Source of the DNA: Terriglobia bacterium
Lineage (GTDB): Bacteria; Acidobacteriota; Terriglobia; Bryobacterales; Bryobacteraceae
NCBI GenBank assembly: GCA_963819125.1
Contig: CAWFUQ010000009.1
Span: forward strand, 13,813 to 77,812
Direction: 5' to 3'
Length of the DNA stretch: 64,000 nt
Under the pieces are notes generated by a model. The model did no database searches, was not told where the DNA came from, and was given only the letters and a program-made list of their open reading frames with translations. This document shows, piece after piece, positions 13,148 through 51,452 of the stretch. Position 1 is the stretch's first letter, and each line of letters begins with the position of its first letter. A program made the translations under genes and the position numbers.

Positions 13148-13148
13148 A

Positions 13149-18092: not shown

Positions 18093-18095
18093 CGA

Positions 18096-19064: not shown

Positions 19065-19122
19065 GTAATATATCTATGTCAAACGACTCAACCTTTTCAA
19101 GGGAGAAACTGCGAGGCGCCGC

Positions 19123-19974: not shown

Positions 19975-20039
19975 AAATCGCTCGCGTCCAAGGTAATAAT
20001 CCGTCCAGGCCGGCACTCCCTTCCGATAGTTGCCACTTT

Positions 20040-35177: not shown

Positions 35178-35957
35178 TTAGTTGCTTCGCCACACCAGCG
35201 TTCCCGCGATCAAATCGTGTATGCCTTGTTTCTTCTGTGTGAAGGCGACGACGAGGCAACTCACCAGACCAAATATTGGGAAGGTTTCAATGATCCAACG
35301 GACAAACCCGGTGCCCAGCGAGATCCGGTTGCCTTCGAGATCGGTTACCTTAAGTCCCATAGCGCGCTTTCCAAGACTTGCCTGGTGCACCGAACTTTCG
35401 GTAATCGCGCCGTACAGGGCCGTAACGATCACGGACATTAAAATGGTGACGGGCACGAACAGGTCGAGTATCGGCACCAGCTCAAGGATTCCGAAAGTCA
35501 GAATGAGCACCAGCGTATCGATCAAATCCGCCACGACCCGAACCCCAAACCCCGCATAACTGGCTTGGCCCGCGATCCCAAGACCCGCTGAATTCCCGCA
35601 AATCGGACAGAAGTTGGTACCGGCAACGATAGGCGATCGGCACCGGCTACAAAGAAATGGATCAACCATTATCGGCCGTGGAGCCCCTTCGGGATGGGGC
35701 GGCGGAGCAGAGCCGGCTCTAGTTCCGCAGGCAGGGCAGAACTTGACGTCAGCCATGAACTCGGTCCCGCACTTGCCGCATAGCATCGTCGCTGTTGCAA
35801 ACGGCGGCGGAGGAATGGTCGAGCCTCCTGGCGCAGAGGCTGCGGCGGTCGCGGCCATTGGCTGAAACACCATGGCTCCGCCACAATTGGGGCAGAACTT
35901 CATCCCCGCAGCCGACTGAAATCCACATTTGCTGCAAGAGGAAATTGTTGTCGTCAT
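35178..35957 (-). CDS. triple zinc-ribbon plus RDD-family membrane protein
   Basis: Three C..CG...KFCP.CG units are followed by an RDD core (YAGFGVRVVADLIDT...LGKRAMGLKVTDLEG...GIHDLIAGTLVW). Confidence 0.8.
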   Translation of the reverse strand: MTTTISSCSKCGFQSAAGMKFCPNCGGAMVFQPMAATAAASAPGGSTIPPPPFATATMLCGKCGTEFMADVKFCPACGTRAGSAPPPHPEGAPRPIMVDPFLCSRCRSPIVAGTNFCPICGNSAGLGIAGQASYAGFGVRVVADLIDTLVLILTFGILELVPILDLFVPVTILMSVIVTALYGAITESSVHQASLGKRAMGLKVTDLEGNRISLGTGFVRWIIETFPIFGLVSCLVVAFTQKKQGIHDLIAGTLVWRSN

Positions 35958-36065
35958 CGACGCTCCTTACCGAGTAACGGTGATTGAGTGATTATAGACT
36001 AGGCACCCGATCGCGCTACTCACTTCATCAGACCCTCGCGTACAGGTTCCATTACAAGCGGATAG

Positions 36066-36491
36066 TCAGGACCTTTTGTGGCCGCAATCGGGGCAAAACT
36101 TGACGCCACTTGGATACGGAGATCCGCATTGCGGACAAGCAATCCGTTGCTGGAGCGGCTTTCCACATTCCCCACAGAACATCGGCCCTTGTGACTCCGC
36201 GCCACAGGCGCCACAAATCGAGGGCGCCGCGCGATGGGCAGGTGACACTTCGCTCCTGAAATCGCTGGCGCCCGTCAGGGGTGGCGGTGAACCTGCGCTC
36301 GTGACCGTGCCGCTCCCGGTTTCCGAACGATCCTGCCTGGTCAATAACCAGCCCGCGAACACCAGAATCACGACGATGATCACGATACCCAGGATCCAGT
36401 CTTGAGCAGAGTCAGCAGTGTTGGCCACTTTAGTGATGAAGGGAATCACCATCACAAGAGCCAGAATGATCCCGAGGATTAATTTTTTCAT
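36066..36491 (-). CDS. membrane protein with C-terminal double zinc ribbon
   Basis: Internal start MKKLILGIILALVMVIPF. Two TM helices are followed by CGACGAESQGPMFCGECGKPL...CPQCGSPYPSGVKFCPDCG. Confidence 0.65.
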   Translation of the reverse strand: MKKLILGIILALVMVIPFITKVANTADSAQDWILGIVIIVVILVFAGWLLTRQDRSETGSGTVTSAGSPPPLTGASDFRSEVSPAHRAAPSICGACGAESQGPMFCGECGKPLQQRIACPQCGSPYPSGVKFCPDCGHKRS

Positions 36492-36511
36492 GCCGCCACC
36501 TCGTCTATGAT

Positions 36512-36874
36512 TTACACGATCGTCCCGCACTCGGGACAAAACCTGGTTCCCTCTTGAAGTTGTGCACGGCAATGGGAGCACGTATTTTGGGGCTGGAATG
36601 GCTTGCCGCATGCGGGGCAAAACTTGGCGCCCGTCGATCGCGTGCCGCAACCTGAACACACGGAAAGAGCCCCGCCGTTCGCGGGAGGCGCGCCGGGCTG
36701 CGGAGCCCTCGGGCGGTCGAATCGAGTCAACCACCAGCCGACCAGGAGCGCGATGGCTACGAGACCGAGGCCGATTGCCCAGTCGCCAGCCGAATCGGCT
36801 TTGATCGCGATGCCGGCGATGAATACTACCAGCCCCACGATCCCGAGGATCTGTCCCGAAGTCCAGCCTTTCAT
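36512..36874 (-). CDS. membrane protein with C-terminal double zinc ribbon (paralog)
   Basis: Two TM helices are followed by CSGCGTRSTGAKFCPACGKPF...CSHCRAQLQEGTRFCPECG. The architecture matches 36066..36491. Confidence 0.65.
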   Translation of the reverse strand: MKGWTSGQILGIVGLVVFIAGIAIKADSAGDWAIGLGLVAIALLVGWWLTRFDRPRAPQPGAPPANGGALSVCSGCGTRSTGAKFCPACGKPFQPQNTCSHCRAQLQEGTRFCPECGTIV

Positions 36875-36959
36875 TTAGACCAATCCTCAACCACGCGCGA
36901 GCCTAAACTTCGGGCTCCGCAGTTGCGGCGGAATCGGGCTCGACCGCTCACCGCATGTT

Positions 36960-38219
36960 TCATTTCGCGGCAGGGATTTCCTTCATGTCCTCGCAGGCTT
37001 TTCTCTCTCCACCTGCACACGCCTTGCGATAGAGTTCCAAAGCACGAGCGTAATCCCGCACCACGCCCTTGGCGTCCCGATAACGGGCCGCAGCAGCAGC
37101 GCACCCTTCCGCGCTTCCCGCGTCGCATGCCTGGACGAACATCGCCGTCGCGTAGCTCTGACTGTCCTTGACGCTCTTGCCGTTCACCCCGAACAGCGAC
37201 ATCGTCCTGGCCCGATCGACCAGCTCGTCCACCTTTTTCACGGCTTCACAACTTGCGGCGCGGCCGGCCTCACACGCCTTTCGATGGAGCTGCATCGCCT
37301 TCACCGGGTCTGGTGCCGTCCCGCGCCCTTCCGCATTCATGACCGCGGCCTTGCCACACGCTTCCACATCGCCGGCATCGCAATTCCGTTCGTAGAACAG
37401 GCGATCGAATACATCTCTACCCTTCTCAGCGTCGGTTTGGGCTCTCCCTGGCTGGTCTTTCAGCAATTTCGTGGGATCGAAATCGCGATGTTCGAAGTCG
37501 TAATTTGATTTGTCCTCGCGTGCCTTCTCGGCGGCTTTCCGCTGCTGATTTTTCATGACCGTCCGCACGGCGACGATCGACAACACCAGAGCCACGACTA
37601 CGCCGGCAATGACTAGCCACACAGTTCCCGAGGACTGCGCACGTCCCGGCGCGCCGGCCGTCATTGCCAGCAAAGGCTTCCCGCATTTTGGACAGAACTT
37701 ACCTCCTTGTCCGGGCGCTCCGCAAGCTGCGCAGAATGACGGTGCTTGGACCACGGCGGCGGCCTCCACGGGAGTCTCCATGGCAAAGCGCGGCGTTTGG
37801 TCCACGACGACGGGCGGACTCGCTTGGTGCTGAAATATTTCCCGGGCGGGCGAAAAGTAGATCAACCCCAGGGTCAATCCGTTCAGCAGCGTCAAGCAGG
37901 TTTCGCAGAGGTCGGTCCAGCCGGTGGTGACGAATGGTCCCAGCAACAGGGACAAGAGCTGGACCACGATGGTGGTGACCAGATAAAAAACGGGCGCCCC
38001 ACGCCAGACCACGAAAAGACAAATGTTCGAGGCCAGATAAGCGAGAGCGAACCCGATCGCCAACACCGTGGCGCCCGGGACGATGAGATCTTTGTTCGCA
38101 GAGATGCTCTGCAGCGCGAAAGGAAGTGACGAGCTCGTCAGGTACGAGGCGAGCCCCATCGCCAGTCCCACGGGAATCTGCAGCAGAATCAGAAGTCGAA
38201 GCAGGCGTTTCGCAGGCAT
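36960..38219 (-). CDS. polytopic membrane protein with zinc ribbon, TM and Sel1-like C-terminal repeats
   Basis: Start at MPAKRLL. A 4-TM N-domain is followed by FCAACGAPGQGGKFCPKCGKPL, a TM helix and Cys-containing Sel1-like repeats (ACEAGRAASCE, ACDAGSAEGCAAAAARY, ACAGGERKACEDM). Confidence 0.7.
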   Translation of the reverse strand: MPAKRLLRLLILLQIPVGLAMGLASYLTSSSLPFALQSISANKDLIVPGATVLAIGFALAYLASNICLFVVWRGAPVFYLVTTIVVQLLSLLLGPFVTTGWTDLCETCLTLLNGLTLGLIYFSPAREIFQHQASPPVVVDQTPRFAMETPVEAAAVVQAPSFCAACGAPGQGGKFCPKCGKPLLAMTAGAPGRAQSSGTVWLVIAGVVVALVLSIVAVRTVMKNQQRKAAEKAREDKSNYDFEHRDFDPTKLLKDQPGRAQTDAEKGRDVFDRLFYERNCDAGDVEACGKAAVMNAEGRGTAPDPVKAMQLHRKACEAGRAASCEAVKKVDELVDRARTMSLFGVNGKSVKDSQSYATAMFVQACDAGSAEGCAAAAARYRDAKGVVRDYARALELYRKACAGGERKACEDMKEIPAAK

Positions 38220-38230
38220 AGTCGCTTCAC

Positions 38231-38780
38231 TCACAGAAAAGATTTGCCGCACTGCGTGCAAAATTTCGTTCCATCATTGGCGGTGCCGCAGGCTGGGCAG
38301 AACAGCACCCGTCTTGCCGCGACGTGTGGGCGCGGCGGTGCGGGTGTTGCGGGGGCTGGTTTCAGGTTCAGGCCGTCATACTGCTCCTTGAGCGGCGAGC
38401 TATAGATCATCATGAAGATGACTCCCGTCAGCACAACATTCGCCGAATGAAAAAAAATCCATCGAGCCGCTTCTGACCAGTGGCCCATGGACAATCGACA
38501 CGAGAATCGAAATCAAGTTGACGCCCGCGTACAGCGGCCGCGCGACATTCGAAAAGGCGCACAGACCGATACCCGCGCCGACCAGACCGATGAACAAGAT
38601 CAGGAAGGCGAGAAGGTCGACCCTGGATCCGAACCGAGCGGATAGCGGAGAGACGTCAGCCAGCGACGCCGCAAATTCTCCAAACAATCTGGGAGCGGAT
38701 AAGCTGATCGAGACGCGCTGCCCGATCCAGAGCGCCGCCTGAAGCGCCACCAGCATTCGAAGAATGTTTTTCGTTGGCAT
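38231..38780 (-). CDS. paralog of the N-domain plus zinc ribbon of 36960..38219, frame broken at an A8/T8 run
   Basis: ORFs 38400..38780 and 38231..38494 join into one paralog-like protein if one base is removed from the 8-nt homopolymer at 38460..38467. GPLVRSGSMDFFHSANVVLTGVIFMMIYSSPLKE aligns with GPFVTTGWTDLCETCLTLLNGLTLGLIYFSPARE. Confidence 0.55.
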
Positions 38781-38849
38781 ACCGGTTTCCGTCGCGACTG
38801 AGCTACTATATCGCGATCCAATCCGTAAGACCCCGCGCTGAGCCGTTCA

Positions 38850-39472
38850 TTACAGCCCGGACACGGGTGCTGAGACGATTTGCCACCCGCCTGCCTCCAG
38901 CCACATCCGGGTCACCTTGGCGGCATCGACGAAGCTGGCGCGGGCGAGGACGGGTCGCGGATGAAGAATCCGGTGATCTCTTCCGACAGAGCGTCTCGCG
39001 CCACGCCCTCGATCAGGACGGCATGGTTGGCTTCGATCATGCTGGGCTCGTCGGCGCGATCCCATAGCTCGGCTGCATTTACGAACGCGATGACATTCGA
39101 GCCCGCCTCGATATTCTGCGCCAAGTCCTCGAGCGAGTGTCCGCGCTCGGAATCGGCGGGCGCGTCGGAATTCGCAAGCAGACGGAGCAAATGATCTTGA
39201 GACACTCCCCCAGAAAGCGCGACGTCGGATGCGTCGTCGCACCAGCCGAGGTGCATGCCGCGAGTCACCAGATCGCCCTCCGAAAGTGCCCTGCCTAGGT
39301 AGAGCGCGCCCGCCGCCAGACTGCTGGTGTTCTCGAACCCGAAAGGATTGCTGAGCTGCGGCGTCGATTCCGCGGTCATATCCACGCCTGCCACGGTCAT
39401 GTCGCGGCCCCGGATCACCTCGCGGCGGACCGAAACATCGACTTGAAGCGGAACCTCTCGAAAATTAGACAT
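38850..39472 (-). CDS. papain-fold peptidase-like protein, Cys->Ser variant (paralog of 50680..51390), C-terminal frame break
   Basis: GFENTSSLAAGAL aligns with GFQGTCGLCSCEN, SLEDLAQNIEAGSNVIAFVNAAELW with TLEDLAGNIEQGRGVIIGVNAGVLW, and NHAVLIEGVARD with NHAITVTGVARD. The tail ASFVDAAKVTRMWLEAGGWQIV (like AKFVDAAMMREGWEEVGGSQVV) is in another frame, with the shift near 38935..38950. Confidence 0.6.
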
Positions 39473-39490
39473 AGAACATAACCTCCAATC

Positions 39491-40225
39491 CTAAGCAGGG
39501 CTCCAATTCAAGTTCCGAATCACCTTGCCACATGCGGTTCGCAACGCGCTCAAACTTCCCCGCGCCATGTAGCGGCGATCGGAATCCAGGACGATCTTGC
39601 GGAACGCCTCTTCTTCCGCCGCGGTCAACGGCTGCGCGGAGTCGGAAGCAGCCCTCGTGAGCGCCTCCGCAATCGCCGCGGGACTGCCCATCTGGTCGCG
39701 ATGATTCACGAACAGGTACGCACGCAGCTTGGGAATCGCCCGGCAATGGAGCACCGCGCAATGGGACCCACTGATCCCCAGCGTCTTCCCGATCTCATCC
39801 CATGACGCTTCGGCATGATTCAATTTCTCGAGTACGCAGTGCGATTCCTGGCCAGTCAATTCACCTGCTTCCGCAGCCCTGGAAAGCATGGACCGCAGGA
39901 AATCGGCTGACATCGCCGGCTCCGGCGCCACCTTCTTCGCAACCAGTCCGGGATTGCTTTCTGCAACTGTTTCAAGAGGTGTATCCCGGACCCGCTGCCG
40001 CACCAGCCGTTGAATCGCCCGGTTGATTTCGTTCCGCGCGATCTTCTGTACCCATTGGCTGAAGGGGCAATCGCCGCGAAATGTCGCCGAGCCTCGCCAG
40101 GCGCGAATGGCGACCTGTTGAACGACATCGCTCGCGAGCGCCGGATTGGACAATGCGTACCGGCACGCTCGTTCTACATGGACGGACGCTTCGCGCCATT
40201 GAGTCTCGAACTCTTCGCTGGTCAT
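39491..40225 (-). CDS. ECF-type sigma-70 family factor with ~70-aa C-terminal extension
   Basis: MTSEEFETQW...; region 2 is ASDVVQQVAIRAWRGSATFRGDCPFSQWVQKIARNEINRAIQR; region 4 is LTGQESHCVLEKLNHAEASWDEIGKTLGISGSHCAVLHCRAIPKLRAYL. The ATG overlaps a TGA in the neighbouring frame (GGATGACC). Confidence 0.75.
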   Translation of the reverse strand: MTSEEFETQWREASVHVERACRYALSNPALASDVVQQVAIRAWRGSATFRGDCPFSQWVQKIARNEINRAIQRLVRQRVRDTPLETVAESNPGLVAKKVAPEPAMSADFLRSMLSRAAEAGELTGQESHCVLEKLNHAEASWDEIGKTLGISGSHCAVLHCRAIPKLRAYLFVNHRDQMGSPAAIAEALTRAASDSAQPLTAAEEEAFRKIVLDSDRRYMARGSLSALRTACGKVIRNLNWSPA

Positions 40226-43200
40226 CCGCTTCCAAATACGTCGAGCGCCTTGCTCTCGGCGAGACCGCTTCGTTGGGATAACAACACGAGAAGCCGGTCG
40301 CGCGCGGCGATACTGTCGGCACCCGGCATCTTTGTGTTCGTCAACAAGCAATAGAGCCACGCCTGGCGGACGGCGCCGTCGGCGGGCTGTCCCGAGATCG
40401 CTCCCCACGGATTGCATGGCCGCGACCGTGGCGCGTTCCACAGATAAAATAGCTTTCTCGGGCGGATCCTGCATGACGAGCGGAAGCACTTGCCGCGTCA
40501 AGCCGCCGATGTGAGCAGCGACGAAAGAGAACATGAGGCAACGCATCGGGCACGCTTCGCAGCCAGGCTCCTCTCGTGGAGGCCGGTTGGTGACGGTCGC
40601 CACGAGCTGTTGATGAGCCTGCTCGAACGCATGACGCTGTTCGTCGTTCAACGCAGAGGCGCGCAGCCACCCAATCAGAAACGGACCGAGTGCGCGCGAC
40701 GCGGCTTCGCGCGTCAATCGATTCTCGGGAAGCAGTCCGCTTTCCGGAGTCAGCGCGCGGCGGCTCTCCAGAAAAACACCGAGCCAGTCGTGGACCGCCG
40801 AGGCCGCGGCGCAATACTCGATTCCAAATCCGCCATCGAGACGCAGACCGGACAATGCGCGGAGATCGGCACGCCAGGTATTCCACGCCGCCCACGCGCT
40901 GGCCGCGTCACCGAGCAAGAGATGTTCGCAGAACGCCGTCAGGCTCCTCTTCACGCGATCCCATCCGCGCGCCTCCTCGAGCGGCGTCAGAAAATCGCAA
41001 GGCGAGGCGCACCACTGGCAGCCTGCGTGTTGGCGGAGGTGGGCGCGCTTCTCCGGATCTGCCAGACGCGCCAGGTCGCGAACCTGATGATCGGTCAGCG
41101 CCTCTACGCGCGCTCCTTTCACCGGCAGGATCCGCACTAGAATCGCCGAACCGATTCGCTCATCATGAACGGCGGCCTGCCCGGTCGGCAGCGCGTTGAG
41201 ATGTCGGATCTGCGGCTCGCTCAGATTCATGCAGCTTCCGATCGCGTGCCGGTCCTCGGAGTCCAGGAGCTGATGCGCGATCTTGAGGTAGGAGTTCTTG
41301 AGAATCTCCGGCGCCAGCTTGCTGGGAATCTGGTCAGCGATGACGAAGCCTTCTCCATAAGCGCGCATTTCGGCGAGCATGTTGGTGAACATCGAAACGG
41401 CTTTCCCGCGCGGGTCGCCTGCCTCCGCGGAGACGCCGCCGCGTGGGGCTTCCAGCAGCCGGTGCGCCTCTTCCACTAGCGTCAAATGCTGCAGCCGCTC
41501 GCGCTGGTTTTCCGGCAGGTCGCGCTGTCGCGCTTCCGCGTATTGGCACAACAGGACAAACAACAGCGCCATGACGAAAGATTTTTCGTCGTCATCGCCT
41601 AGGTCCTGCAATTCCACTACCGCCGGCCGGGAAAAAATGGATTCGAGCGGCGTGGATCTCCTGGTGTTGAGCGCCAGGCCTTTGTTGCCGACCATCAGGC
41701 TGCGCAGCCGCGAGCGAAGTGCCGCGCCCATGTTCTGATGAATCTCCTGCCCATATTTTTTCCTGGCCAGCACGACCTCGATTTTGTCATGCAGATCCTG
41801 AAGATTAGGCGTTAGCGCGCTCAAATCGTCGAGCGAGGGACGATCTCCGAGAGAGGCGTTGCCGGAGTCGTACAGGCTCCAGCCACGCTCCGTGTAGATC
41901 TCGAGCAGCGCTTCCTCCAGCACGTACTGCATTCCGGCGAACATCGAAAAGGAGGCGTTAAAGACCGCCTTCAACATATCGATATGCCGTCCGAGAGGAA
42001 CGCCCTGCACCGGCGCCAGCGGATTCAGCCGGAGCGGGAGGGTAACCCCGCCACCAAAACCGAAGACGCCGAGCTTGCCTTTCAATTCTGGGGTCTGCAG
42101 CAGCCGGCGATATTCGCTCTTCGCCGGCTCGAGCACCAGGAACGGCACGCGCAGTTTCTCGAAAGACTCGAGGAGAATCTGCATGCACGTATTCGTCTTT
42201 CCGCTGCCGGGCGTTCCGGTGACGAACACGTGCCGGTTCAGCGATCCCGCGGGAATGGCAACCGGGCTCAGATCGCGGCTGAGTTCGTCCTGGAGGACGC
42301 CGATGGTGATCGAATCGGACTTGGGCGCCGGGACCGAGAGAGCGAACTCGCTGAAATCGCGCATCGGCAGACCGGGGATCTCGCGCTGCGGGGGCGTCAC
42401 CAGTACCGACAGCTCTTCGCAATCGAGACAGGTCGCCAGGGCGTCGAAGGCCGGTCCGAGCGGATGCCCCTGGTCGCCGGAGGCAGGCCGCATTTCCAGA
42501 ATGCGTCCGTATTCAATGCCGTTGCGCACGGACTCATCAGGGGGAGATAGGATACGCAGCGGATCGAGCGCGGAAGCATCGCCGCCGCCGAGACCGCGCA
42601 ATCCGCCGGCGACCGCGTGAACCGCAGCGTCGCTTTCGGCCACCAGGTACACTGCTGTTTGCCAGCATCCGCTGCCGCGGGCCCGGATCAGACGGTCCGT
42701 GTACTGTTGGATCATCTGCTCGCAGGCTTCGGCATGGGCGTCCAGCAAATCGACCCCGCCCGATTCGGACCAGTTCGTCCCGTCCTGGATCTGGCTTGCT
42801 CTGCCGGTGCTGTCCCGGCGTCCCGCCAAGTTCGCGGCAGTCATGGTTGTATTGAGCGCCGCGACGAATGGCATGGCGTTCATCCCTAGAGGAAGGGCGA
42901 CCAGGCTGGAGAAAGCCGCCACACTCGAAAGACAGAGCGGGAGATCCTGCAGCCACCGGTTCTTCTTCTGTGTTTCCTCAGTCTCGGTACGCGACTCGGA
43001 TTTCGATCCACCCTGCACCCGCTGCACCGTGCGCCGCACGTAGGCGTGCATCTCGCTCTTGAGGCGCCGGCAGATGTCGATGGCATCATCGATCGCCTCC
43101 GCTTCCAGGGGCCGGGCGACCAACATCAGCGCATAAGGCTGATCGCCGACGGCGGCCACCAGCCGGTCCAGACTCTGGAAGCTCGATGAGGGATCCTTCG

Positions 43201-43753
43201 ATCGCCGGGAGGGTATCCCGGTCATCACGCGCGTCGCTGGGGCATCGCGCAGGAAGGAAGCCAAATCCGGGAGGTCCTGCTGAGTGAGGCCGGCGAGCGG
43301 CCCGAATTCGAGCCCGTTCAAGTGTGAGCGGTAGGCGCTCTCCTGCATGGAGAGATAATCTTCCGTCGATCGCGCTCCGGCGCCGATGATGCGCCGGCCG
43401 CCCACGTACAGACGATGGCGGCCGCGTGAGCCATGAAGAATCACCACGAGTGAGTGCCCGGGATCGGAGCATGCCGTCAACACTTGCGGCATGGCGCGAG
43501 CGAAAATTCCGGGCTCCTGCGGGCGGCCCAGGCCCGTCACTTCGCGCAGCAGCGGACGCGCAATGTCGCCAGTTCTCGGCTGGATGTTCCAGTCAGCAGC
43601 CCGAAAGTGCGAGAGATACCTTCGTTCCAGAACCGACACCAATGCCTGCGGCAGACCTTCGGTGAATTGCACCTCGGCGGCCAGCGAGGGTCGCGCGGGC
43701 TCAGCGGCCGCGGATACCGCGACAGGCTGCGCCGGACGGGGATCAATCGGCAT
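40222..43753 (-). CDS. large HerA/FtsK-superfamily (DUF87-like) ATPase with ~480-aa unknown N-domain and Cys-cluster C-domain; apparent frame break near 40385..40395
   Basis: Walker A VFVTGTPGSGKTN, Walker B HLTLVEEAHRLLE, and GEGFVIADQIPSKL. The C-terminus has CQWCASPC and CEACPMRC. The last ~55 codons (GQPADGAVRQAWLYCLLTNTKMPGADSIAARDRLLVLLSQRSGLAESKALDVFGSG*) are in a different frame with better third-position GC. Confidence 0.8.
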
Positions 43754-44900
43754 CGACGTTTCCTCGTTCCCATGGCGGAATCAGCGGGGCTGGAGATGGC
43801 GAAGATTCCAGGTCAGGTTGCGCGAAGGTGGACGCCTCAATCGCGGGCATGGAATCGAGGAGCATTCCCGAGGGATGCTCGCCCAACTCGCCCCACCAAG
43901 TCGCTCCCGCGGCGACATCTTCGGCCGCTGCGCCGCTCCGCCATACCGGGGCCAGCGCGGCTGCGATTCTTTCGGCGAACGGCCAAACGGAACCCAGCCC
44001 GCCCACTAACAACAGTTCCGGCGAGTCACTTCCGATGGCTCGCAGCGCTCCTCGGATCGCGTCTGGAAGCTGCTGCGAGAACGAAACGAATTCGGGCCAA
44101 GCCGTGCATTCCCGATAAGAGAGTGACAGCGGAGCGTATAAGCGCTCCTCGAAGATCTCGCGCCACTCAACCGGTTGCTCAGCGCTCGATTGAGAAAGGC
44201 GCGCGGCGTAGCGGGCGGCCGCCTCGCGAAGGGGTCGTTCGAAGCCGGTTCCGGGTTCTTCGTTCAGCCGCTTGCGCACCAGGTCGAGCAGCCGCCGGTT
44301 CCAAGCGGACTCGCCGGCTTCCTCGATCGCCTGGGGGGCGCTGACAGCCGCGATCGACGGGAAGCCACGGCTGTCCCATTCAAGCCAGAAGGCAGTCACG
44401 AGAGTGGACGTCTCTCCCACAGCGATTGCGACGACGGCTTTCTGTTTGGCTGGTTCGAGCGACCGCGATGCGAACCAGCGGCACAGCAGCGCATGCGTGG
44501 CCGGAAGAACCGTGATCTCATCGAACCCCGCGGCGCGGGCCAAAGCGTCGACCGTATGCGCCTCCGTTCGAAAATTCGATCCCTGCAAAGCGATCGCGAG
44601 ACGGTATCCGTTTTTTCGCACGGGCGCGAGCCGGCCGAGATAGGCGGATAGACGGCGATACGCTCCCTCCCAAAAAAGACGGGCACCGGGCTCCTCGACC
44701 CATGCGCCGTTTCCGGAGGCGGTCCACAGAGGGGCATGTCCAGCCGCGCGGCTGCCCCAATCTCCCGTGCCCGCCACGGCGTTCGGAATTTGTGCGCGGA
44801 CGCCGTCGCCGACCAAAGCAACGTGCGCACCTTCATCACCCTCCTCGCGTAAAGCGATCACTGTGACGGAAGGCTGGTAATCCACGCCGAAGGTATTCAT
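43743..44900 (-). CDS. degenerate actin/Hsp70-fold (ASKHA-like) protein
   Basis: MNTFGVDYQPSVTVIAL, VVAIAVGETSTLVTAF and ELLLVGGLGSVWPFAERI sit where the phosphate-1, phosphate-2 and adenosine motifs would be. The stop overlaps the ATPase start by 11 nt. The fold assignment is tentative. Confidence 0.5.
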   Translation of the reverse strand: MNTFGVDYQPSVTVIALREEGDEGAHVALVGDGVRAQIPNAVAGTGDWGSRAAGHAPLWTASGNGAWVEEPGARLFWEGAYRRLSAYLGRLAPVRKNGYRLAIALQGSNFRTEAHTVDALARAAGFDEITVLPATHALLCRWFASRSLEPAKQKAVVAIAVGETSTLVTAFWLEWDSRGFPSIAAVSAPQAIEEAGESAWNRRLLDLVRKRLNEEPGTGFERPLREAAARYAARLSQSSAEQPVEWREIFEERLYAPLSLSYRECTAWPEFVSFSQQLPDAIRGALRAIGSDSPELLLVGGLGSVWPFAERIAAALAPVWRSGAAAEDVAAGATWWGELGEHPSGMLLDSMPAIEASTFAQPDLESSPSPAPLIPPWERGNVDAD

Positions 44901-44966
44901 CCGGCGAACCCTTGTTTCCATCCCCGCGGCGTCTCCGTGACGAAAGGGGCGGCCAGTTTGGCTGCT

Positions 44967-46569
44967 TCATCTGCCAGTTCTCGAAAGGCGGCTCTGCGCG
45001 TCCCGAAGCCGCCGAAGAGCGGTTTCATCGGGCATCGGACAATCCGCGGGCTGCAGCGAATAAAGCCGATCGAAACCCTCCAGGAGGCGCGGGCCGCGGG
45101 ACTGCATCGCCGTGATCAGGTTTTCGATCAGCCGCTGGATCTCCGCGCGAACGGTGGCCAGCCATTGCGGCGGACGGCCCAGCTTCTCGCCGACGAATGC
45201 AGGAATGGCCGCCACCACCGCATTGACGCCGCCTGCTTCGATTTTTTCAAGAAACCGGATCGGAAGAGCCGGCGGACAAGTCTGGCTCAATAAATACTCG
45301 GTCCACTCCGGATTCAAAGGCGCTTCGCCGCTTCGTCGCAACGTTTCACCGGCATGTTGAATCATCCGCCGCGCGGCGGCATCGGCGACGGCGGCGATTT
45401 CGCGATTCAATTCCTCCGCGTGGATTCCGCCTGAAGCCACTGCCACATTCGTCAGTCGTGATGAAATGCTTGCGCCGCAGGCTTTCGCGCCAACGGAGAA
45501 ATCCTCCAGGAATTTTTCGATAGCCTTGGACAAGGATTCCGCGAGTTGGCGCTTTCCCTCCGCACGGCGATCCACTTCCGCTGCCTCAGCTTCTTGCCGC
45601 TCGAAATCAGCCACCGCTTGGGCAGATGGGTTCTTCGAGCCGCGACGCACAATCCCGCAGCGCTGCCGCAGCGCGCCATAGCCGCGTCCGCATCACGCGT
45701 GGATGAAATCGCAGAATCCACTTGCACCATGAATCCCAGAAGATCCGCGCCGCCAAAGGTGTTCTGTCCGGATTTGCACATCGCACGCCCGCCACCGGCA
45801 GGATGGTGGGAGGCGCTTGTTCCGGAAAGCCCATATCCGGAGACGAAATGGCACACTTTATTGATCAACTGCGGAGCGCTTTTAGACAGGAACTGTTCCC
45901 ACTCCGCGGGACTGTCGGTACGAAGAAATCCATTCAGGATGAAGATCACCGAAGCCGGTCCGGATTCCTGGACGTGGCTCGCGAGGAATTCCATCTCCAC
46001 CTGCGAAAGGAGCTGGCGCGACGTCAGCACCCACGCCAACACATCCGAGTACGCGGCCGACCGGCGCGTGCGTTCGTCCATCTCGGGAGTATCGTTGTAT
46101 CCGGGCGAATCCACCCAGCACGCGTTGGCTGGAATCACGGAATCCTTGAGAACGATTTCGGCACGTTCGATAGCCGCCACCTCGCTGCGCCGCTCTCCAC
46201 GTTCCGAAAGCAATGTGATTTCGGCGCGAATGGCTTCAGTGGAGCAGGGGATCGCGCGCCTTGCTCCCGCTTCGATGACAACGGCGCCATCCTCATCGCC
46301 ACTCAGCAAGCAACAGATCGCGCCGGTATCGGGCACATCGTCGACCGGTAGGATGTCGCGCCCGACCACCGCGTTCATCATGGTCGATTTGCCGGCCTTG
46401 AACACGCCCCCGAAATTCACGGTCACCTGTTCTTCCCCGATCACACGTGTGAGCTTCCAAGCCGCGTCGCGATATCCGGAGCGTCGGCCTTCGTCATCGC
46501 AGCGAGTTCCTCGATCCGGGCATTCAGATCCTGCACAGCTTCTTTCGAAACACCAGCACAAAAAATCAT
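44967..46569 (-). pseudogene. dynamin-like GTPase 2, reading frame broken at least three times
   Basis: ATG at 46569 gives MIFCAGVSKEAVQDLNARIEELAAMTKADAPDIA. The GTPase domain lies in a second frame (GGVFKAGKSTMMNAVVG, WVDSPGYND). The helical C-terminal 227 aa lie in a third frame (ORF 44967..45650). Confidence 0.6.
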
Positions 46570-46577
46570 GCGGCTCT

Positions 46578-48591
46578 TTACGCTGTCTGCTGCAAACTCA
46601 CATTGAGCACCGTAAGCTCCTGCCGCAGCGCCCCGACCCGGCGCAACGATTGATCGAGCGAGGAAAGCATCCGCGCTTTTTCCGACTGGCTTCGCCGGTT
46701 GTTTTCGGCGATGGTGCGCAGATTTCTCTCTTTCCCTCGATGATGGTCAGCACCGCGGCGCTGATGTCCGTAGCCAGCTTGTCAATGTACGCCCCCGTTT
46801 CCGATTCGATCGGTGGAGCATAATTTTTCACCCACTTCATCGAGCCGAGGCAGGACGTCGTCGAGCGCTTTCTTCTTGACTCTCTGGGTGAGCCCGATGG
46901 TCCCGCCGACTACGTTCGCCACCATCCCTGCGCCGATGCCCCACAGCACCAGGTAGGGCAGTCCGAACCATCCAAGAGCGGCTACCGCTGCCAGGCGCGC
47001 GGCGATATTGAAGCTCAATCCGCGAAATCCGGTGGATAGCCCGGTCAGTGTCGTGAAATCCTGAAAGAGAACCAGTCCAACCACGGTCGACCACGCCCGT
47101 TCCTGATCGCTGATCATCTTATTGTCCGCTCCCGGTTCGAGTTTCCAGCCGGTCACCTGGAATTGGACATCGTCGAACTCGCGCTCGATCGCCGCCACCT
47201 CGTCCTGAACTTCCCGCAGCAGCGCTTCGAGGCCGGGCTCCAGAATTTTCTGCGCCGTGTCACCTTCCGCTGGCGGTTCCGTTGCACCAGGAGAGAACCT
47301 GCTCGCTGATCTGGCGTTCGCAGAACGAGTATGCCTCGGCCAACATTTCCTTCTGATGCGCGAGCGCCAGAGCCGTATCGGACGGCAGCTTTTCTGCCAT
47401 GAGCCGATCGGGAAGGGTTTGTTTCAACTGCACGGTTACCATTCCGAACCCGGCACGGATGTCGCGCAGGCTCTGGTCGCGGTACCGCCGGAAGATCTCC
47501 GGTAGCCGTTCATAACGCTTGCGAATGTCAGCCAGTTGCGGTTGAATCGCTTCGAACGCGACCCGCAATTGTTCGGTGTCGGCCTGCAGCGCGGCTTGCC
47601 GCTGCCGGACCTGCTGCTCGATGGTGACCGCCGAGTTGTCCGCCGCTTTCAGAAAACGATCGATATGAACGCGCTGCCGGTCGTGGACCAGGAACTCGCC
47701 GAGTTTCGCTTCAAAGCCGGCCAGACCCGATTGCTCCATCTGCCTCGCGTCAGCCAGCAACTTGCCCTGCTCCGCTTGCCTGGCGTCTACGAAGTAAATG
47801 TCGCGGCTCTTGAAATCCTGCGGAGCGTCGGCGCTGCCGCCAAAGTCCGTCACCAGACGACGCCACACAAAACCCTTGAAGCGATCATCCACCGCACGGC
47901 CATCCTGCAAATTCACCACCGTGAAAACGCGTGTTCCCGAGTTGGTGAGCGTCTCGTGCACGAACTTCCGCTCGTCCTCGCCGGCCAGGACGTCGCTGCG
48001 GTACACGACGATCGCCACGTCGCACTTGCCGATCGCCTGCCGCGTCACTTCGGTGCGCTCGGGGATATCGTCGGTGCCGGGCGAGTCGATGATCGTGACG
48101 CCGGATTGGCATAGCTCAGCCGGAAAGCCCATCTCGAATTCACGAATCTTGCGGAAGAAATCGCGCGTTTCGCTCTCGTTCTCGCGTACCGTGCCCTCGC
48201 GCCGGTACTTTTCTAGCGACCAGTCTTCTGAGTTTCCATCAAAACCCCATGCGCGAACAGTGGGCCGCTCGGCGTAATGAATGGAGGTCAGCGTAGCGGT
48301 GCACGGCAGCTCGCCAACCGGCATGGGGCCCTGGCCGAACCCGAGCTCGGGAACCGGCCTTGTGGAGCCACCAAGAAGCGCATTCAGAAGGGTCGATTTA
48401 CCGTTCTTAAAGCGGCCCGTGACAATGATCTGAAAAGTATCCGACGCCAGCCGTTCGGCGGTTTGCTCCAGCCGGGCGGCGGTCTCTTTCATATCGAGAC
48501 TCGACGCCAGCGTTGTCAGATCGAGAATTGTTTTGCGAGCCTGGGTTTTCGATCGTCCAAATTCCTGTTCCAGTAATTGCTTCAGAACCAT
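46578..48591 (-). pseudogene. dynamin-like GTPase 1 (BDLP-like, ~670 aa) split over four frames
   Basis: G1 is GRFKNGKSTLLNALLG and G3 is IIDSPGTDD. ORF 47260..48591 continues sensibly into 46782..47198 (hydrophobic paddle LAAVAALGWFGLPYLVLWGIGAGMVANVVGG). It then continues into 46598..46840 and into a fourth frame ending ...LRQELTVLNVSLQQTA* at 46578. Confidence 0.7.
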
Positions 48592-48610
48592 CGATGCGCT
48601 CCATCCTACC

Positions 48611-50116
48611 CTATAGCCTTTGCCTGTACAACAACAACTGAGCTCGATCCAACTCCGCGGCCGAATCTCCGTCGGGAACCTTCATCGCCTGTGCGTAGGC
48701 GGCATCCAATGTGGTCTCGATCGCGCTTAATTCCGCAGCCAGGCGATCGCGGTATTCGGCGATCGCGCCCTGGATCGCGGTCCTCGATTCGGGGATCGCT
48801 TGGCGCGTCATCGCATGAATGGCTTGCCGCGCCGCCTGAGCGGACTGCTCGAAGGATTGGCCGCGCCGCGCGATACCCAGCGCCGCAAGCAAGCTGGAAA
48901 CGGCGACCGTCGCGACCAGACCGGTGCTGAGCGCCGCGGCTAAACCGAACAGCGCCACGACACCGGTCACTCTATCCTGCCACTCCGGTCCTGAGGTGGT
49001 GTGCTCCAGCGCGGGAGCGTGCGGATCCACCGGAATTCTCAGCGACACCGCAGCCGGCCGCGCGGGATTTCCCGCCATCGCGTGAACGAAGTCCCAATCG
49101 ATTCGATCCAGCAGCGTCTGCGTTTCGAGGATGATCCCGGCGACCCGCTGATCGAGTTCCACCTCCAGGCGCAGCCGCCATGAGGTCATCCCTTCTTCGA
49201 TGCACTTTTCCAGCAGCGACTGAAACTTGCGGCTGTAGACATGAGTGTCCTTCCACAGTCCGGACTGTCCCTCCCGCACCTTTTCGATCCGCCGTAGCAG
49301 ATCCTGTTCGAGCGCCAGCAGCGAGGCGGCTACCTGGGCCGAAAGACTCGCGGCGTCGCCATCCATGCGGCGCGCCACGCGGCTTCGAACTTCAGCGACT
49401 TCAACTCGCGCGCGGCGCAGGCGGCCGGCATCGCCGTCGCGGGCCGGATGTGTTGCCGGCGTGAATCCTTCCGCGAAGTCCAGCAGCCGGGACACTTGCG
49501 CGCGATCCAGCAATTCGACATCGGGATCGGCCAGAGGCCGCCGCAGCAGCGCCGCCAGTTCCTCCGCGTCACGGCGGCAGCGGTCGCGCAGAAATTCGTT
49601 GGGTTCGGAAGCGCTCCACAAGTAGCACTGATACGCGAGGAGATCCTGCCGCTGCCACTCGCGTTTTGGATCGGGAACCACCAGCCGCCAGATGGCGCGT
49701 TCCATCTGGTCCAGATCCTCCGGCGATTTGAGGCGTTCCGCGTGCGTGAATACGATCGCGAAGGATTCGAGAGGCCGCGTCAGGAACTGCTCCGCGATAG
49801 CCGTCGCCGCGGCTGCATCGAGTGCGCGGCCGCACTCGAAAACGGCGACCAGCTTCGTCGCGAACCACGCGCTAAACGGCGGCGCGGCGATCTCCCCGAT
49901 GGGGGCTTCCGTGATTTCCGCGGGATCGGCCGTTTGCTGCATCCAGTTCCGCAGCGGTGTAGCGTCCACGCCAGCGCCGTGCGCGAGCAGGATCTCCCGC
50001 CGCGTCCTGCGAGACAGAATCGCCGCCGCAAGATCCTCGACGGATTTCCAGCCGCGGCGCGCCGCCAGGTCGCGTATGCCCTGGACAACCTCTTCGTTAA
50101 TGGATGCTGCCGTCAT
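48611..50116 (-). CDS. dynamin-like paralog with degenerate P-loop and hydrophobic paddle
   Basis: 501 aa. LLAHGAGVDATPLRNWM sits where G1 would be, with no GK[ST]. There is a helical stalk, a paddle-like VTGVVALFGLAAALSTGLVATVAVSSLLAALGIA and a C-terminal helix. The layout matches the two downstream DLPs. Confidence 0.55.
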   Translation of the reverse strand: MTAASINEEVVQGIRDLAARRGWKSVEDLAAAILSRRTRREILLAHGAGVDATPLRNWMQQTADPAEITEAPIGEIAAPPFSAWFATKLVAVFECGRALDAAAATAIAEQFLTRPLESFAIVFTHAERLKSPEDLDQMERAIWRLVVPDPKREWQRQDLLAYQCYLWSASEPNEFLRDRCRRDAEELAALLRRPLADPDVELLDRAQVSRLLDFAEGFTPATHPARDGDAGRLRRARVEVAEVRSRVARRMDGDAASLSAQVAASLLALEQDLLRRIEKVREGQSGLWKDTHVYSRKFQSLLEKCIEEGMTSWRLRLEVELDQRVAGIILETQTLLDRIDWDFVHAMAGNPARPAAVSLRIPVDPHAPALEHTTSGPEWQDRVTGVVALFGLAAALSTGLVATVAVSSLLAALGIARRGQSFEQSAQAARQAIHAMTRQAIPESRTAIQGAIAEYRDRLAAELSAIETTLDAAYAQAMKVPDGDSAAELDRAQLLLYRQRL

Positions 50117-50122
50117 GGCGCA

Positions 50123-50647
50123 CTACTTCTCCAGCCATTCGAAGAAATCGGGCACGATGGCGCGATACTGCGGCTGAAGCGGCTCCGGAAGAAGTTCCGT
50201 CAACATCGACGCAAGGCTCCGGCGCTCGATCGCATCCCCTGGTTCGCCTGCGAAAAAGCGCGGCGTCAGAGTCTCCAGTTTCTCTTCCATAGTCTTCAAC
50301 GATTGACGCAGCTCGTCTCTGGTGATCGCGACGCGCGGCAACGTGACCGCCTCGAATTTCGCGCCCGATGGAAAGGTAATCGACTTCGTCAATGCGTAGA
50401 CCATCAGCCGCCCGCCGTAGGCTGCCACTACCCACCAGCGGTCTGGGGCGCTTTGCTGCATGGGCTCCTGCGGCCGCCGCAGCGCCGCGGCTGCGAAGTA
50501 GGCGTAGGAAGGCTCGCCCCATTTCATCGTCGGTAGCGGCAGTGAGATGGCATGCTCGGTGGGAATTTCCGAGCGGATCAGGAAGTGGGTCTTCTGAAGC
50601 TCGCGCAGTTCCGCGTAACTCATGAGATGTTTTTGGATGGTTGTCAT
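50123..50647 (-). CDS. small hypothetical protein (174 aa)
   Basis: I prefer the start at MTTIQKHL because GGAGAG lies 6 nt upstream. The ORF track opens at 50752, which overlaps the peptidase gene. There is a 6-nt gap to the next gene and no known domain. Confidence 0.5.
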   Translation of the reverse strand: MTTIQKHLMSYAELRELQKTHFLIRSEIPTEHAISLPLPTMKWGEPSYAYFAAAALRRPQEPMQQSAPDRWWVVAAYGGRLMVYALTKSITFPSGAKFEAVTLPRVAITRDELRQSLKTMEEKLETLTPRFFAGEPGDAIERRSLASMLTELLPEPLQPQYRAIVPDFFEWLEK

Positions 50648-50679
50648 ATCTGCTCTCTCCGCTTGGTCCATATGGTTTG

Positions 50680-51390: not shown

Positions 51391-51452
51391 CGCGTCCTCT
51401 CTTTACGTCTCCTACCGCCTTCAATCCTTCAGACCCCCGATCAGGGCCGCCC

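What the first reader, a model, noticed from the sequence alone, without database searches (positions are those of the whole stretch)
39491..40400. Sigma factor translationally coupled to the HerA-like ATPase; the 1420-aa ORF is probably two genes
The ORF track shows one 1420-aa ORF (39491..43753). About 55 codons before the sigma-factor Met, the protein-like sequence (…AAMQSVGSDLG) becomes an Arg-rich low-complexity stretch (TARRRRRPPGVALLLVDEHKDAGCRQYRRARPASRVV...). A neighbouring frame there reads like real protein with GC-rich third positions (GQPADGAVRQAWLYCLLTNTKMPGADSIAARDRLLVLLSQRSGLAESKALDVFGSG*). That frame stops at 40222..40224 and overlaps the sigma ATG at 40225 (GGATGACC). So the ATPase most likely ends there after a 1-nt slip near the GGG at ~40388, and the sigma is a separate, coupled gene. 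No zf-HC2 anti-sigma is adjacent. The sigma has a ~70-aa C-terminal extension and is followed by the Ser-variant peptidase-like protein, which could act as its partner.
Basis: partly seen in the sequence, partly recalled or inferred. Interest (0 to 1): 0.7.

Follow-up and report, generated by a model that had tools for sequence, protein, structure and literature searches.

The report
Frameshift-fused ATPase and dedicated sigma factor
The 1420-codon reading frame is not one gene: one extra G joins a large HerA-like ATPase gene to a separate ECF-type sigma factor gene, and this sigma appears to control the surrounding dynamin/HerA gene island, which occurs in many phyla and which I did not find described.

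Summary

- **Two genes, not one.** On the minus strand, a ~1176-aa HerA-like ATPase (43753..40222) loses its frame 59 codons before its natural stop. It then runs, with no stop, into the frame of a 244-aa ECF-type sigma factor (40225..39491).
- **Evidence from relatives.** Most full-length ATPase relatives are about 1115-1215 aa. They carry the tail encoded in the other frame (WLYCLLTN...VFGS). All 37 sigma relatives are stand-alone proteins.
- **Overlap.** The ATGA stop/start overlap is present in all four close relative lineages. It is 8 nt in a Thermoanaerobaculia genome.
- **Site of the extra base.** It most likely lies in the G-run at 40403-40406, not the GGG at 40391-40393.
- **Island-wide damage.** At least five more indels break other island genes, while long ORFs elsewhere in the window show no sign of disruption. 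Assembly error and real decay cannot be told apart here.
- **New: the sigma family.** It has its own conserved 73-aa C-terminal extension. In the loci examined it sits next to a C39-like gene, here a paralog that has lost the catalytic cysteine.
- **New: a promoter-like motif.** TGTAAK-N16-GGTCT occurs three times in the window (0.02 expected), only upstream of island operons. It recurs in orthologous loci, including a Streptomyces locus fetched afterwards.

Interest is moderate.

The parts
40222..43753 (-). HerA/FtsK-superfamily ATPase gene (~1176 aa once one base is removed). Walker A is GTPGSGKT and Walker B is LTLVEEAHRL. The C-terminal domain is rich in cysteines. The natural stop is TGA 40224..40222.
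   Evidence: Orthologs of 1176-1180 aa align from residue 1 at 43753 to ~40403 in one frame, then to 40228 in the next frame. Other support: length distribution, invariant Walker residues and cysteines, weak DUF87/HerA hits.
40402..40406 (-). Most likely site of the 1-nt insertion: GGGG(A) on the minus strand. Removing one base gives ...QSVGAISGQPADG...
Evidence: Each single base from 40380 to 40424 was deleted in turn and the result scored against 7 orthologs. The blastn gap falls at 40402 and the tblastn frame change at 40403-40406.
40226..40401 (-). Arg-rich pseudo-linker of about 59 codons. It is the real ATPase tail read in the sigma's frame, and it happens to contain no stop codon.
   Evidence: Translation. 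The other frame over the same bases matches the ortholog C-termini.
40222..40225 (-). ATGA stop/start overlap of the ATPase and the sigma. A weak Shine-Dalgarno-like GGAAG lies at 40233..40229.
   Evidence: Sequence. The same ATGA overlap occurs in L001-3, L004/5, L085 and L086, and an ATGATTGA overlap occurs in L014.
39491..40225 (-). ECF-type sigma factor gene (244 aa). The sigma2-sigma4 core is residues 9-171 (40201..39713). The family-specific C-terminal extension is residues 172-244 (39712..39494).
   Evidence: TIGR02937 scores 47.1 bits against a cutoff of 42.9, covering the full profile. Pfam Sigma70_r2 also hits. The AlphaFold model has pLDDT 86 with three confident helices in the extension. 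The best Foldseek hits are all ECF sigmas. Orthologs align from residue 1.
38850..39472 (-). C39b, a papain/C39-like paralog that has lost the catalytic cysteine. It is Ser here and Ala in close orthologs. It is the candidate partner or anti-sigma. It carries its own frameshift near 38940, and its natural stop TAA 38852..38850 lies inside promoter-like site 2.
   Evidence: Weak Peptidase_C39_2 hit, active-site alignment, frame change, reading of the natural stop.
51431..51457 (-). Promoter-like site 1, TGTAAG-N16-GGTCT, 40 nt upstream of the C39a ATG (51390), at the head of the long operon.
   Evidence: The same site is present in the orthologous locus L004.
38828..38854 (-). Promoter-like site 2, TGTAAT-N16-GGTCT, upstream of the first double-zinc-ribbon membrane protein gene (ATG 38780).
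   Evidence: Conserved in L001/L002 and L004.
36030..36056 (-). Promoter-like site 3, TGTAAT-N16-GGTCT, upstream of the zinc-ribbon/RDD gene (ATG 35957).
   Evidence: Found by the pattern search and not used to define the motif. Conserved in L001 and L085.
50680..51390 (-). C39a, a predicted active papain/C39-like cysteine peptidase (QG..GTCGLCS, NHA, ND motifs). It is the first gene of the operon.
43743..50752 (-). The rest of the conserved core: p178 (50123..50752 ORF), p502 (48611..50116), dynamin-like protein 1 (46581..48591, indel near 47267 plus a pair at 46812/46729), dynamin-like protein 2 (~44946..46566, indels near 45712 and 45624), and p384 (43743..44921).
   Evidence: Synteny with L001-L005 and about 35 genomes. 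Dynamin_N hits. Indels.
35178..38780 (-). Downstream membrane proteins with double zinc ribbons (36066..38780, partly frame-broken) and a zinc-ribbon/RDD protein (35178..35957). These are the predicted second and third transcription units.
   Evidence: Pfam DZR/RDD/Sel1 hits, orthologs in L001 and L004.

Best explanation
The 1420-aa ORF joins two genes through one extra base.

**What is shown**
- The ancestral arrangement is a ~1176-aa HerA-like ATPase whose TGA stop overlaps the ATG of a separate 244-aa ECF-type sigma factor (ATGA). This layout allows translational coupling.
- In this sequence, one extra G in the run at 40403-40406 moves the ATPase reading frame into the sigma's frame. That frame happens to be free of stops for 59 codons, so ORF finders report a fusion.

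**What is inferred**
- The sigma is the dedicated regulator of the 16-kb island around it. The island holds a C39-like peptidase, two proteins of unknown function, two dynamin-like GTPases, a further protein of unknown function, the ATPase, the sigma, an inactive C39-like paralog, and zinc-ribbon membrane proteins.
- The sigma probably directs RNA polymerase to GTAA-N16/17-GGGTCT promoters. Three of these lie in front of the island's three transcription units.
- Because the sigma sits inside the first unit, it would reinforce its own expression.
- Its activity is probably held in check by the adjacent inactive C39-like protein, by its own three-helix C-terminal extension, or by both.

**What is unresolved**
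- The extra base may be a consensus error or a real mutation. If it is real, the ATPase lacks its conserved last 59 residues and the island is decaying.
For: **Two genes**
- The repaired ATPase is 1176 aa and its closest relatives are 1176-1180 aa.
- The alternate-frame tail is shared by most of the 30 best relatives aligned and matches the closest ortholog with tblastn E = 1e-16.
- The deletion scan peaks at the G-run.
- All 37 sigma relatives are 219-308 aa.
- The ATGA overlap is present in L001-3, L004/5, L085 and L086, and L014 has an 8-nt overlap.

**ECF type**
- TIGR02937 scores above its cutoff over the full profile.
- The Foldseek top hits are SigL, SigH, RpoE, AlgU and SigW.

**Dedicated regulator**
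- Sigma orthologs were found beside this cluster in Pseudomonadota-like, Acidobacteriota, Actinomycetota and Abditibacteriota-like loci.
- The 73-aa extension matches only 38 representative clusters among 1.84 billion proteins. Nearly all matches lie at the C-terminus of proteins of this size.

**Promoter**
- The motif occurs 3 times in the window against 0.02 expected. All three are on the coding strand in island intergenic regions, and the third was not used to define the motif.
- In 51 non-redundant orthologous loci it occurs 10 times on the coding strand. It occurs once on the opposite strand, once in reversed sequence, once in complemented sequence, and 0.75 times on average in shuffles.
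- In the Streptomyces locus L092, fetched afterwards, the only coding-strand match in 23 kb lies between the sigma stop and the C39a start.

**Partner**
- A sigma followed by a C39-like gene that has lost the catalytic cysteine is seen in both gene orders.
Against: - No reads are available, so the indel cannot be assigned to error or mutation.
- The motif is linked to this sigma only by co-occurrence and by its ECF-like two-part shape. Its -35 element (GTAA) often overlaps the stop codon of the upstream gene, which inflates part of the signal.
- In head-type loci the motif lies downstream of the sigma gene, so self-activation is not a general feature.
- Several actinomycete loci and L087 have only the active C39a next to the sigma, so the inactive paralog cannot be a universal anti-sigma.
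- The cyanobacterial cluster L093 has neither a sigma nor the motif within 10 kb.
- The Shine-Dalgarno-like GGAAG lies only 3 nt from the ATG.
- The sigma did not reach subfamily level in NCBIfam. ECF-group HMMs were not available.
Confidence: 0.85

Rival explanations
1. The extra G and the other island indels are consensus errors of the assembly. In the organism the ATPase, the dynamin-like proteins and C39b are intact, and the ATPase and sigma are made as separate, coupled proteins.
For: - All disruptions are indels. No nonsense substitution was seen in the aligned frames.
- The ATPase indel lies in a homopolymer.
- The two closest sigma-bearing contigs, L085 and L086, have names ending in _np1212, which I read as a long-read assembly pipeline. 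Their cluster genes are fragmented in the same way, and in L086 unrelated genes are fragmented too.
Against: Long ORFs outside the island show no sign of disruption: 1360, 1033, 849, 806 and 756 aa, plus an IS21 element. An island rate of about one indel per 2 kb applied to roughly 20 kb of intact ORFs gives about e^-10. Errors would therefore have to be strongly local. Several island indels are not in homopolymers.
Confidence: 0.5
2. The indels are real. This copy of the island is being inactivated, and the cell would make a truncated ATPase fused through a junk linker to the sigma, or nothing useful at all.
For: - Indels are concentrated in the island, while the rest of the window looks intact.
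- Two independent assemblies of the closest relative (L001 and L003, from different samples) carry a 2-nt CT deletion that splits the sigma gene. A third (L002) has it intact. Natural loss-of-function variants of this cluster therefore seem to exist.
Against: There are no nonsense codons and no large deletions. Protein similarity to orthologs stays high on both sides of each indel. Long-read contigs of relatives show similar fragmentation.
Confidence: 0.45
3. The 1420-aa product is a genuine ATPase-sigma fusion protein, or it is produced by a programmed ribosomal frameshift.
For: The joined frame is open for 1420 codons. The sigma frame follows the ATPase frame with no stop.
Against: - No sigma domain was recorded in any of the 79 ATPase relatives, and only three exceed 1215 aa.
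- None of the 37 sigma relatives exceeds 308 aa.
- The linker is low-complexity and has no counterpart in relatives, whereas the other frame over the same bases is conserved.
- The closest ortholog has GTGCCG-GCG in place of the G-run, so there is no shared slippery site.
Confidence: 0.03
4. The GTAA-N16/17-GGGTCT element is not this sigma's promoter. It could be the binding site of another regulator or another sigma, or an RNA-level or end-of-gene signal.
For: No direct binding data exist. GTAA often contains the upstream gene's TAA stop. The window encodes a second, weak ECF-like sigma at 18096..19064.
Against: - The two-part layout, the 16-17 nt spacer of unconserved sequence and the GTC-containing -10 box are typical of ECF promoters (general knowledge of the family).
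- The element is strand-specific, lies upstream of genes, and follows the sigma family across phyla.
- In the one cluster examined that has no sigma nearby (L093), the element is absent.
Confidence: 0.2

Closest known systems
ECF sigma factors with regulatory C-terminal extensions (ECF41 SigJ, ECF42, ECF44 CorE, ECF56 SigG1)
   Same: A minimal sigma2-sigma4 core followed by a conserved extension of more than 50 aa, with no classical zf-HC2 anti-sigma nearby. SigG1 (7qh5) appears among the structural matches.
   Different: The extension is a short three-helix unit with no SnoaL_2, TPR or Cys-rich metal motif. It has no Pfam match and is found only in this family. A conserved neighbouring protein (C39-like) is present, which extension-regulated groups usually lack.
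Classical ECF sigma/anti-sigma pairs (sigmaE-RseA, SigW-RsiW, AlgU-MucA)
   Same: The sigma gene is directly followed by a conserved partner gene. The target motif is two-part with a GTC-containing -10 box. In this lineage the sigma lies within the operon it probably controls.
   Different: The neighbour is a papain/C39-like fold that has lost its cysteine, not a zf-HC2/ASD membrane protein. The proposed -35 is GTAA rather than GGAAC. No regulated-proteolysis genes were identified.
Overlapping, translationally coupled gene pairs (ATGA)
   Same: A 4-nt stop/start overlap that is present in close relatives.
   Different: Nothing unusual in itself. In this sequence the coupling is masked, or destroyed, by the upstream frameshift.
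Dynamin-like and HerA-based anti-phage systems (Eleos LeoA/LeoBC; SIR2-HerA, DUF4297-HerA; MADS mad8)
   Same: The island encodes two dynamin-like GTPases with weak LeoA/LeoBC similarity and a HerA-superfamily ATPase with weak mad8/HerA similarity.
   Different: The scores are weak. The ATPase is twice the usual size, with large N- and C-terminal domains. The gene set (C39-like, p178, p502, p384, sigma) matches no PADLOC system. A defence role is untested.
DdvS/DdvA, the ECF pair that controls a CRISPR-Cas locus in Myxococcus (PMC6061681, seen; only title and abstract read)
   Same: A dedicated ECF sigma switches on one specialised gene island.
   Different: DdvS has a membrane anti-sigma, and the target island is unrelated.

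Membership tests
ECF (group 4) sigma-70 family | Only sigma2 and sigma4 domains, detectable by family profiles | tested here: met
   TIGR02937 scores 47.1 bits against a cutoff of 42.9; residues 9-171 cover profile positions 6-165 of 165. Pfam Sigma70_r2 has E = 7.8e-8. The Foldseek top 25 hits are almost all ECF sigmas.
ECF (group 4) sigma-70 family | Recognises a two-part promoter (-35 AAC-like, -10 CGT/GTC-like, 16-17 nt spacer), often in front of its own operon | tested here: inconclusive
   GTAA-N16/17-GGGTCT is enriched, strand-specific, and predicted correctly in L092. Binding by this sigma has not been shown.
ECF (group 4) sigma-70 family | Assignment to a named ECF group or NCBIfam subfamily | tested here: not met
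   No subfamily or equivalog model reaches its cutoff. ECF-group HMMs were not available, and the supplements of the reclassification paper are not held.
ECF sigma with classical anti-sigma (zf-HC2/ASD) | An adjacent gene encodes an anti-sigma domain | tested here: not met
   The neighbours are the ATPase and a C39-like protein, and neither has a zf-HC2 hit. The only zf-HC2 hit in the window (weak) is at 19123..19974, next to another sigma.
HerA/FtsK-superfamily ATPase | Walker A and B motifs and a HerA-type core | tested here: met
   G513, G516, G518, K519 and E761-E762 are invariant. The profile hits HerA structures at E = 1e-9. DUF87 is precomputed for most relatives. The window protein itself scores just below the Pfam cutoff, 20.8 against 23.2 bits.
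Natural ATPase-sigma fusion protein | Relatives encode both domains in one polypeptide | tested here: not met
   No sigma domain is recorded in any of the 79 ATPase relatives, and all 37 sigma relatives are at most 308 aa.
Programmed ribosomal frameshift | A slippery site and a two-frame layout conserved in relatives | tested here: not met
   The closest relatives read through in one frame and the closest lacks the G-run.
Translationally coupled gene pair | A stop/start overlap shared by relatives | tested here: met
   ATGA is present in the repaired window gene and in L001-3, L004/5, L085 and L086. ATGATTGA is present in L014. Actual coupling was not measured.
Peptidase C39-like (papain fold) | Catalytic Cys and His plus a profile match | tested here: inconclusive
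   C39a has the Q/C/H/N-D motifs but scores 21.8 bits against a cutoff of 24. C39b lacks the Cys (Ser, Ala or Gly) and in some relatives the His. Relatives carry precomputed PF13529.
Known anti-phage systems in PADLOC | Component proteins match a defined system | tested here: not met
   Only weak single-protein hits were found (LeoA/LeoBC, mad8, HerA), and six of ten proteins have no hit.

The most novel reading that the evidence does not exclude
The island may be an undescribed system found in at least eight phyla. Its parts are an active C39-like peptidase, two proteins of unknown function, two dynamin-like GTPases, a further protein of unknown function, and a giant Cys-rich HerA-like ATPase. 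It would bring its own transcription switch: a new ECF-like sigma group with a private three-helix extension, a GTAA-N16/17-GGGTCT promoter, and a pseudopeptidase acting as a new kind of anti-sigma. The active peptidase paralog might relieve that inhibition.
Probability: 0.35. Interest if true: 0.65.

Novelty: new variant of a known kind. Interest (0 to 1): 0.45.

Why it matters
- **Annotation.** The 1420-aa 'fusion' should be split into two genes. The whole island should be checked for indels before any functional inference is drawn.
- **Biology.** The sigma gives a concrete handle on a large gene cluster found in many phyla and not found described in my searches. The cluster combines dynamin-like GTPases with a HerA-like motor.
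- **Testable predictions.** There is a predicted regulator, a predicted promoter with three sites here that recurs across phyla, and a candidate non-classical anti-sigma (a pseudopeptidase). Each can be tested with standard assays.
- **If confirmed.** This would add a new ECF group with a new mode of control. It would also indicate when cells deploy this dynamin/HerA machinery.

Tried and rejected
- **Source contig.** I looked for the window's own contig by exact protein look-up, using the 1420-aa ORF and p502. Neither is on record. The organism and sequencing platform stay unknown.
- **Coding-frame tracker.** A codon-usage tracker meant to find frameshifts outside the island was too noisy to use.
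- **Indirect check for broken genes elsewhere.** I ran tblastn with all ORFs of the fetched loci against the rest of the window. It gave only five uninformative hits. Suspicious overlapping ORF pairs (8140/8526 and 23814/24694) look like ordinary gene starts or non-coding frames.
- **First promoter search.** Enumerating two-part words in six upstream regions from distant phyla gave nothing above shuffles. The motif appeared only when close relatives' intergenic regions were compared by eye. It was then tested formally.
- **Sigma-70 promoter and terminator scans** of the island were not above chance.
- **RNA genes.** Rfam and tRNA scans of the window found nothing.
- **Literature.** Six searches found no description of the cluster or of a papain-like anti-sigma. 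The ECF reclassification paper mentions neither dynamin, HerA nor C39, and its supplements are not held.
- **Solved structures.** PDB sequence searches for p384 and C39a found nothing.
- **Fusion and programmed frameshifting** were considered and rejected on the ortholog evidence.


Full report
**1. The observation**

On the minus strand, ORF 39491..43753 is open for 1420 codons. After ...AAMQSVGSDLG its translation turns into an Arg-rich, low-complexity stretch. The neighbouring frame reads GQPADGAVRQAWLYCLLTNTKMPGADSIAARDRLLVLLSQRSGLAESKALDVFGSG*. That frame ends at TGA 40224..40222, which overlaps ATG 40225..40223.

**2. Two genes, not one**

- I repaired the frame and searched 5.8 billion proteins. 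The best relatives, at 74-83% identity, are 1176-1180 aa, matching the repaired length of 1176 aa. Most full-length relatives are about 1115-1215 aa, and none has a recorded sigma domain.
- Most of the 30 best relatives share the C-terminal tail, W/L-LYC-L-TN...LL..L...FG. This is the alternate-frame sequence.
- tblastn with ortholog proteins shows the ATPase aligning from residue 1 at 43753 down to about 40403 in one frame. It then continues to 40228 in the next frame (E = 1e-16 for the tail).
- All 37 relatives of the sigma part are stand-alone proteins of 219-308 aa.
- A natural fusion and a programmed frameshift are therefore both rejected. The closest relatives read through in a single frame, and the closest lacks the G-run.

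**3. Where the extra base is**

I deleted each base from 40380 to 40424 in turn and scored the result against seven orthologs. The score peaks at 614 for 40402-40406, the GGGG(A) on the minus strand. That repair gives QSVGAISGQP, compared with QSVPAITEQP and TSGVIAESP in relatives. The site lies just above the finding's upper coordinate.

**4. Coupling**

In the closest orthologous contigs the ATPase stop and the sigma start overlap as ATGA. This holds for L001-3 (one lineage), L004/5 (a Steroidobacteraceae MAG), L085 and L086. A Thermoanaerobaculia MAG (L014) has an 8-nt overlap, ATGATTGA. A weak Shine-Dalgarno-like GGAAG/GGGAG lies 3 nt upstream of the ATG.

This arrangement is not universal:
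- In a Blastocatellia MAG the sigma is convergent with the ATPase.
- In Nocardia, Acrocarpospora, Actinoplanes, Lentzea and Streptomyces the sigma is the first gene of the cluster. The same is true of an Abditibacteriota-like MAG and three metagenome lineages.
- A Rivularia cluster has no sigma within 10 kb.

**5. The frameshift is not alone**

Compared with orthologs, the island carries further uncompensated indels:
- dynamin-like protein 1, near 47267, plus a pair at 46812/46729;
- dynamin-like protein 2, near 45712 and 45624;
- C39b, near 38940;
- the first zinc-ribbon gene, near 38455.

No nonsense substitution was seen in the aligned frames. Outside the island, long ORFs of 1360, 1033, 849, 806 and 756 aa and an IS21 element show no sign of disruption.

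Two related contigs have names ending in _np1212, which I read as a long-read assembly pipeline. They show the same kind of fragmentation. On the other hand, two independent assemblies of the closest relative carry a real-looking 2-nt deletion that splits the sigma gene, while a third has it intact.

I cannot decide between consensus error and genuine decay, and I rate them about equal. Reads are needed.

**6. What the sigma is**

- NCBIfam places it in the sigma70-ECF superfamily, above the cutoff and over the full profile (residues 9-171). No subfamily model reaches its cutoff.
- An AlphaFold model built on 22 relatives is confident (pLDDT 86). It shows three further helices at 182-193, 202-213 and 225-237.
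- Foldseek matches only the ~170-aa core, to SigL, SigH, RpoE, AlgU and SigW.
- The extension is conserved, with E204, F208, R229, A231 and C232 invariant. H160 and C161 in the sigma4 recognition helix are also invariant.
- Searched alone against 1.84 billion representative proteins, the 73-aa extension finds only 38 clusters. Nearly all matches lie at the C-terminus of proteins of the same size. The extension is therefore private to this family.

**7. The neighbourhood**

A scan of one genome per species shows a conserved gene order: C39-like peptidase, p178, p502, dynamin-like 1, dynamin-like 2, p384, ATPase. This order occurs in about 35 genomes of Actinomycetota, Acidobacteriota, Planctomycetota, Chloroflexota, Cyanobacteriota, Armatimonadota, Abditibacteriota and a Steroidobacteraceae MAG.

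In the loci where the sigma was found, it lies directly next to a C39-like gene.
- The head-of-operon copy, C39a, keeps the Gln/Cys/His/Asn-Asp motifs.
- The copy after the sigma in the window's lineage, C39b, has Ser (window) or Ala at the Cys position. In some relatives it has also lost the His.
- Head-type loci L089 and L091 carry the sigma, then an inactive C39-like gene, then an active C39a. L090 has only an inactive copy.

However, some actinomycete loci have only the active copy next to the sigma.

**8. A candidate cognate promoter**

Comparing intergenic regions of close relatives showed a shared two-part element.

- As TGTAAK-N16-GGTCT it occurs three times in the 64-kb window, against 0.02 expected. 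All three are on the minus strand and in island intergenic regions. They lie 40 nt before C39a, before the first zinc-ribbon gene, and before the zinc-ribbon/RDD gene. The third site was not used to define the pattern.
- In 51 non-redundant orthologous loci, GTAA-N16/17-GGGTCT occurs 10 times on the coding strand. It occurs once on the opposite strand, once in reversed sequence, once in complemented sequence, and 0.75 times on average in shuffles.
- In head-type loci it lies between the sigma (or the sigma-pseudopeptidase pair) and C39a.
- As a test after the fact, I fetched a Streptomyces locus once the motif was fixed. Its only coding-strand match in 23 kb lies in the 105-nt gap between the sigma stop and the C39a start.
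- The Rivularia locus with no sigma has no such site.

That this island's sigma uses these sites is an inference. It rests on co-occurrence and on the ECF-like layout of the element.

**9. Model**

*Shown:* there are two genes with an ATGA overlap, a single-base frame break, an ECF-type sigma with a private extension, conserved linkage to the cluster, and an enriched promoter-like motif.

*Inferred:*
- the sigma drives three transcription units of the island;
- in this lineage it sits inside the first unit and so reinforces its own expression;
- it is restrained by the pseudopeptidase, by its extension, or by both;
- the signal that activates it and the function of the dynamin/HerA machinery are unknown. 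Similarity to the Eleos, HerA and MADS defence proteins is weak.

**10. Comparison and novelty**

The frame break itself is ordinary. The sigma is a new variant of a known kind. It has an ECF core, but a new extension, a non-classical neighbour and an unusual -35 element. Six literature searches and the ECF reclassification paper gave no description of it or of the cluster. That library is incomplete, however.

**Verdict**

I rate interest at 0.45.

Noticed in passing
window 44946..48591 and 38378..38960 (minus strand): At least five further frame-breaking indels relative to orthologs. They are in dynamin-like protein 1 (~47267, plus a pair at 46812/46729), dynamin-like protein 2 (~45712, ~45624), C39b (~38940) and the first zinc-ribbon gene (~38455). 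No nonsense codons were seen, and genes outside the island look intact.
   Followed up: partly
L001 10500-10540 and L003 4130-4170, compared with L002 9335-9345: Two independent assemblies of the closest relative (different samples) carry a 2-nt deletion in a CTCT repeat that splits the sigma gene into 84 + 155 aa. A third assembly with the identical ATPase has the sigma intact. This may be natural loss-of-function or switching.
   Followed up: partly
window 40222..41100 (ATPase residues ~900-1176): The ATPase C-terminal domain has eight cysteines that are invariant or nearly invariant across phyla: C912, C915, C919, C981, C1065, C1068, C1072 and C1135. They form motifs such as HAGCxxCxxPC and GCxxCPxRC, which look like two metal-binding sites. 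The frameshift removes the last one.
   Followed up: no
window 39491..40225 (sigma residues 161 and 232): One cysteine in the sigma4 recognition helix (HCRAIPKLR) and one in the last helix of the extension (LRxAC) are invariant in all 22 aligned relatives. A redox or contact role is conceivable but untested.
   Followed up: no
window 12383..14666 (minus strand): An apparently intact IS21-family element: IstA-like transposase (505 aa) and IstB ATPase (254 aa, full-length Pfam match).
   Followed up: no
window 14991..24165 (plus strand): A second regulatory module. It comprises a CHAT-TPR protein (1033 aa), a weak ECF-like sigma (18096..19064), a weak zf-HC2 protein (19123..19974) and a 1360-aa Kelch/InlB-repeat protein. 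The island motif does not occur here.
   Followed up: no
L085 and L086 (ENA ERZ26871208, contig names ending _np1212): The contigs carrying the closest sigma relatives have many fragmented genes. In L086 these include unrelated TonB-receptor and oxidoreductase genes, which points to contig-wide indel errors in that assembly.
   Followed up: partly
L089 6830-8597 and L091 7175-9093: Some head-type loci carry two C39-like genes in tandem after the sigma, first an inactive copy and then an active one. In L091 the promoter-like motif lies between them.
   Followed up: yes
window 9945..11660 (minus strand): An Hsp70/MreB-like protein (571 aa) lies outside the island. Its relation to the island was not examined.
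   Followed up: no
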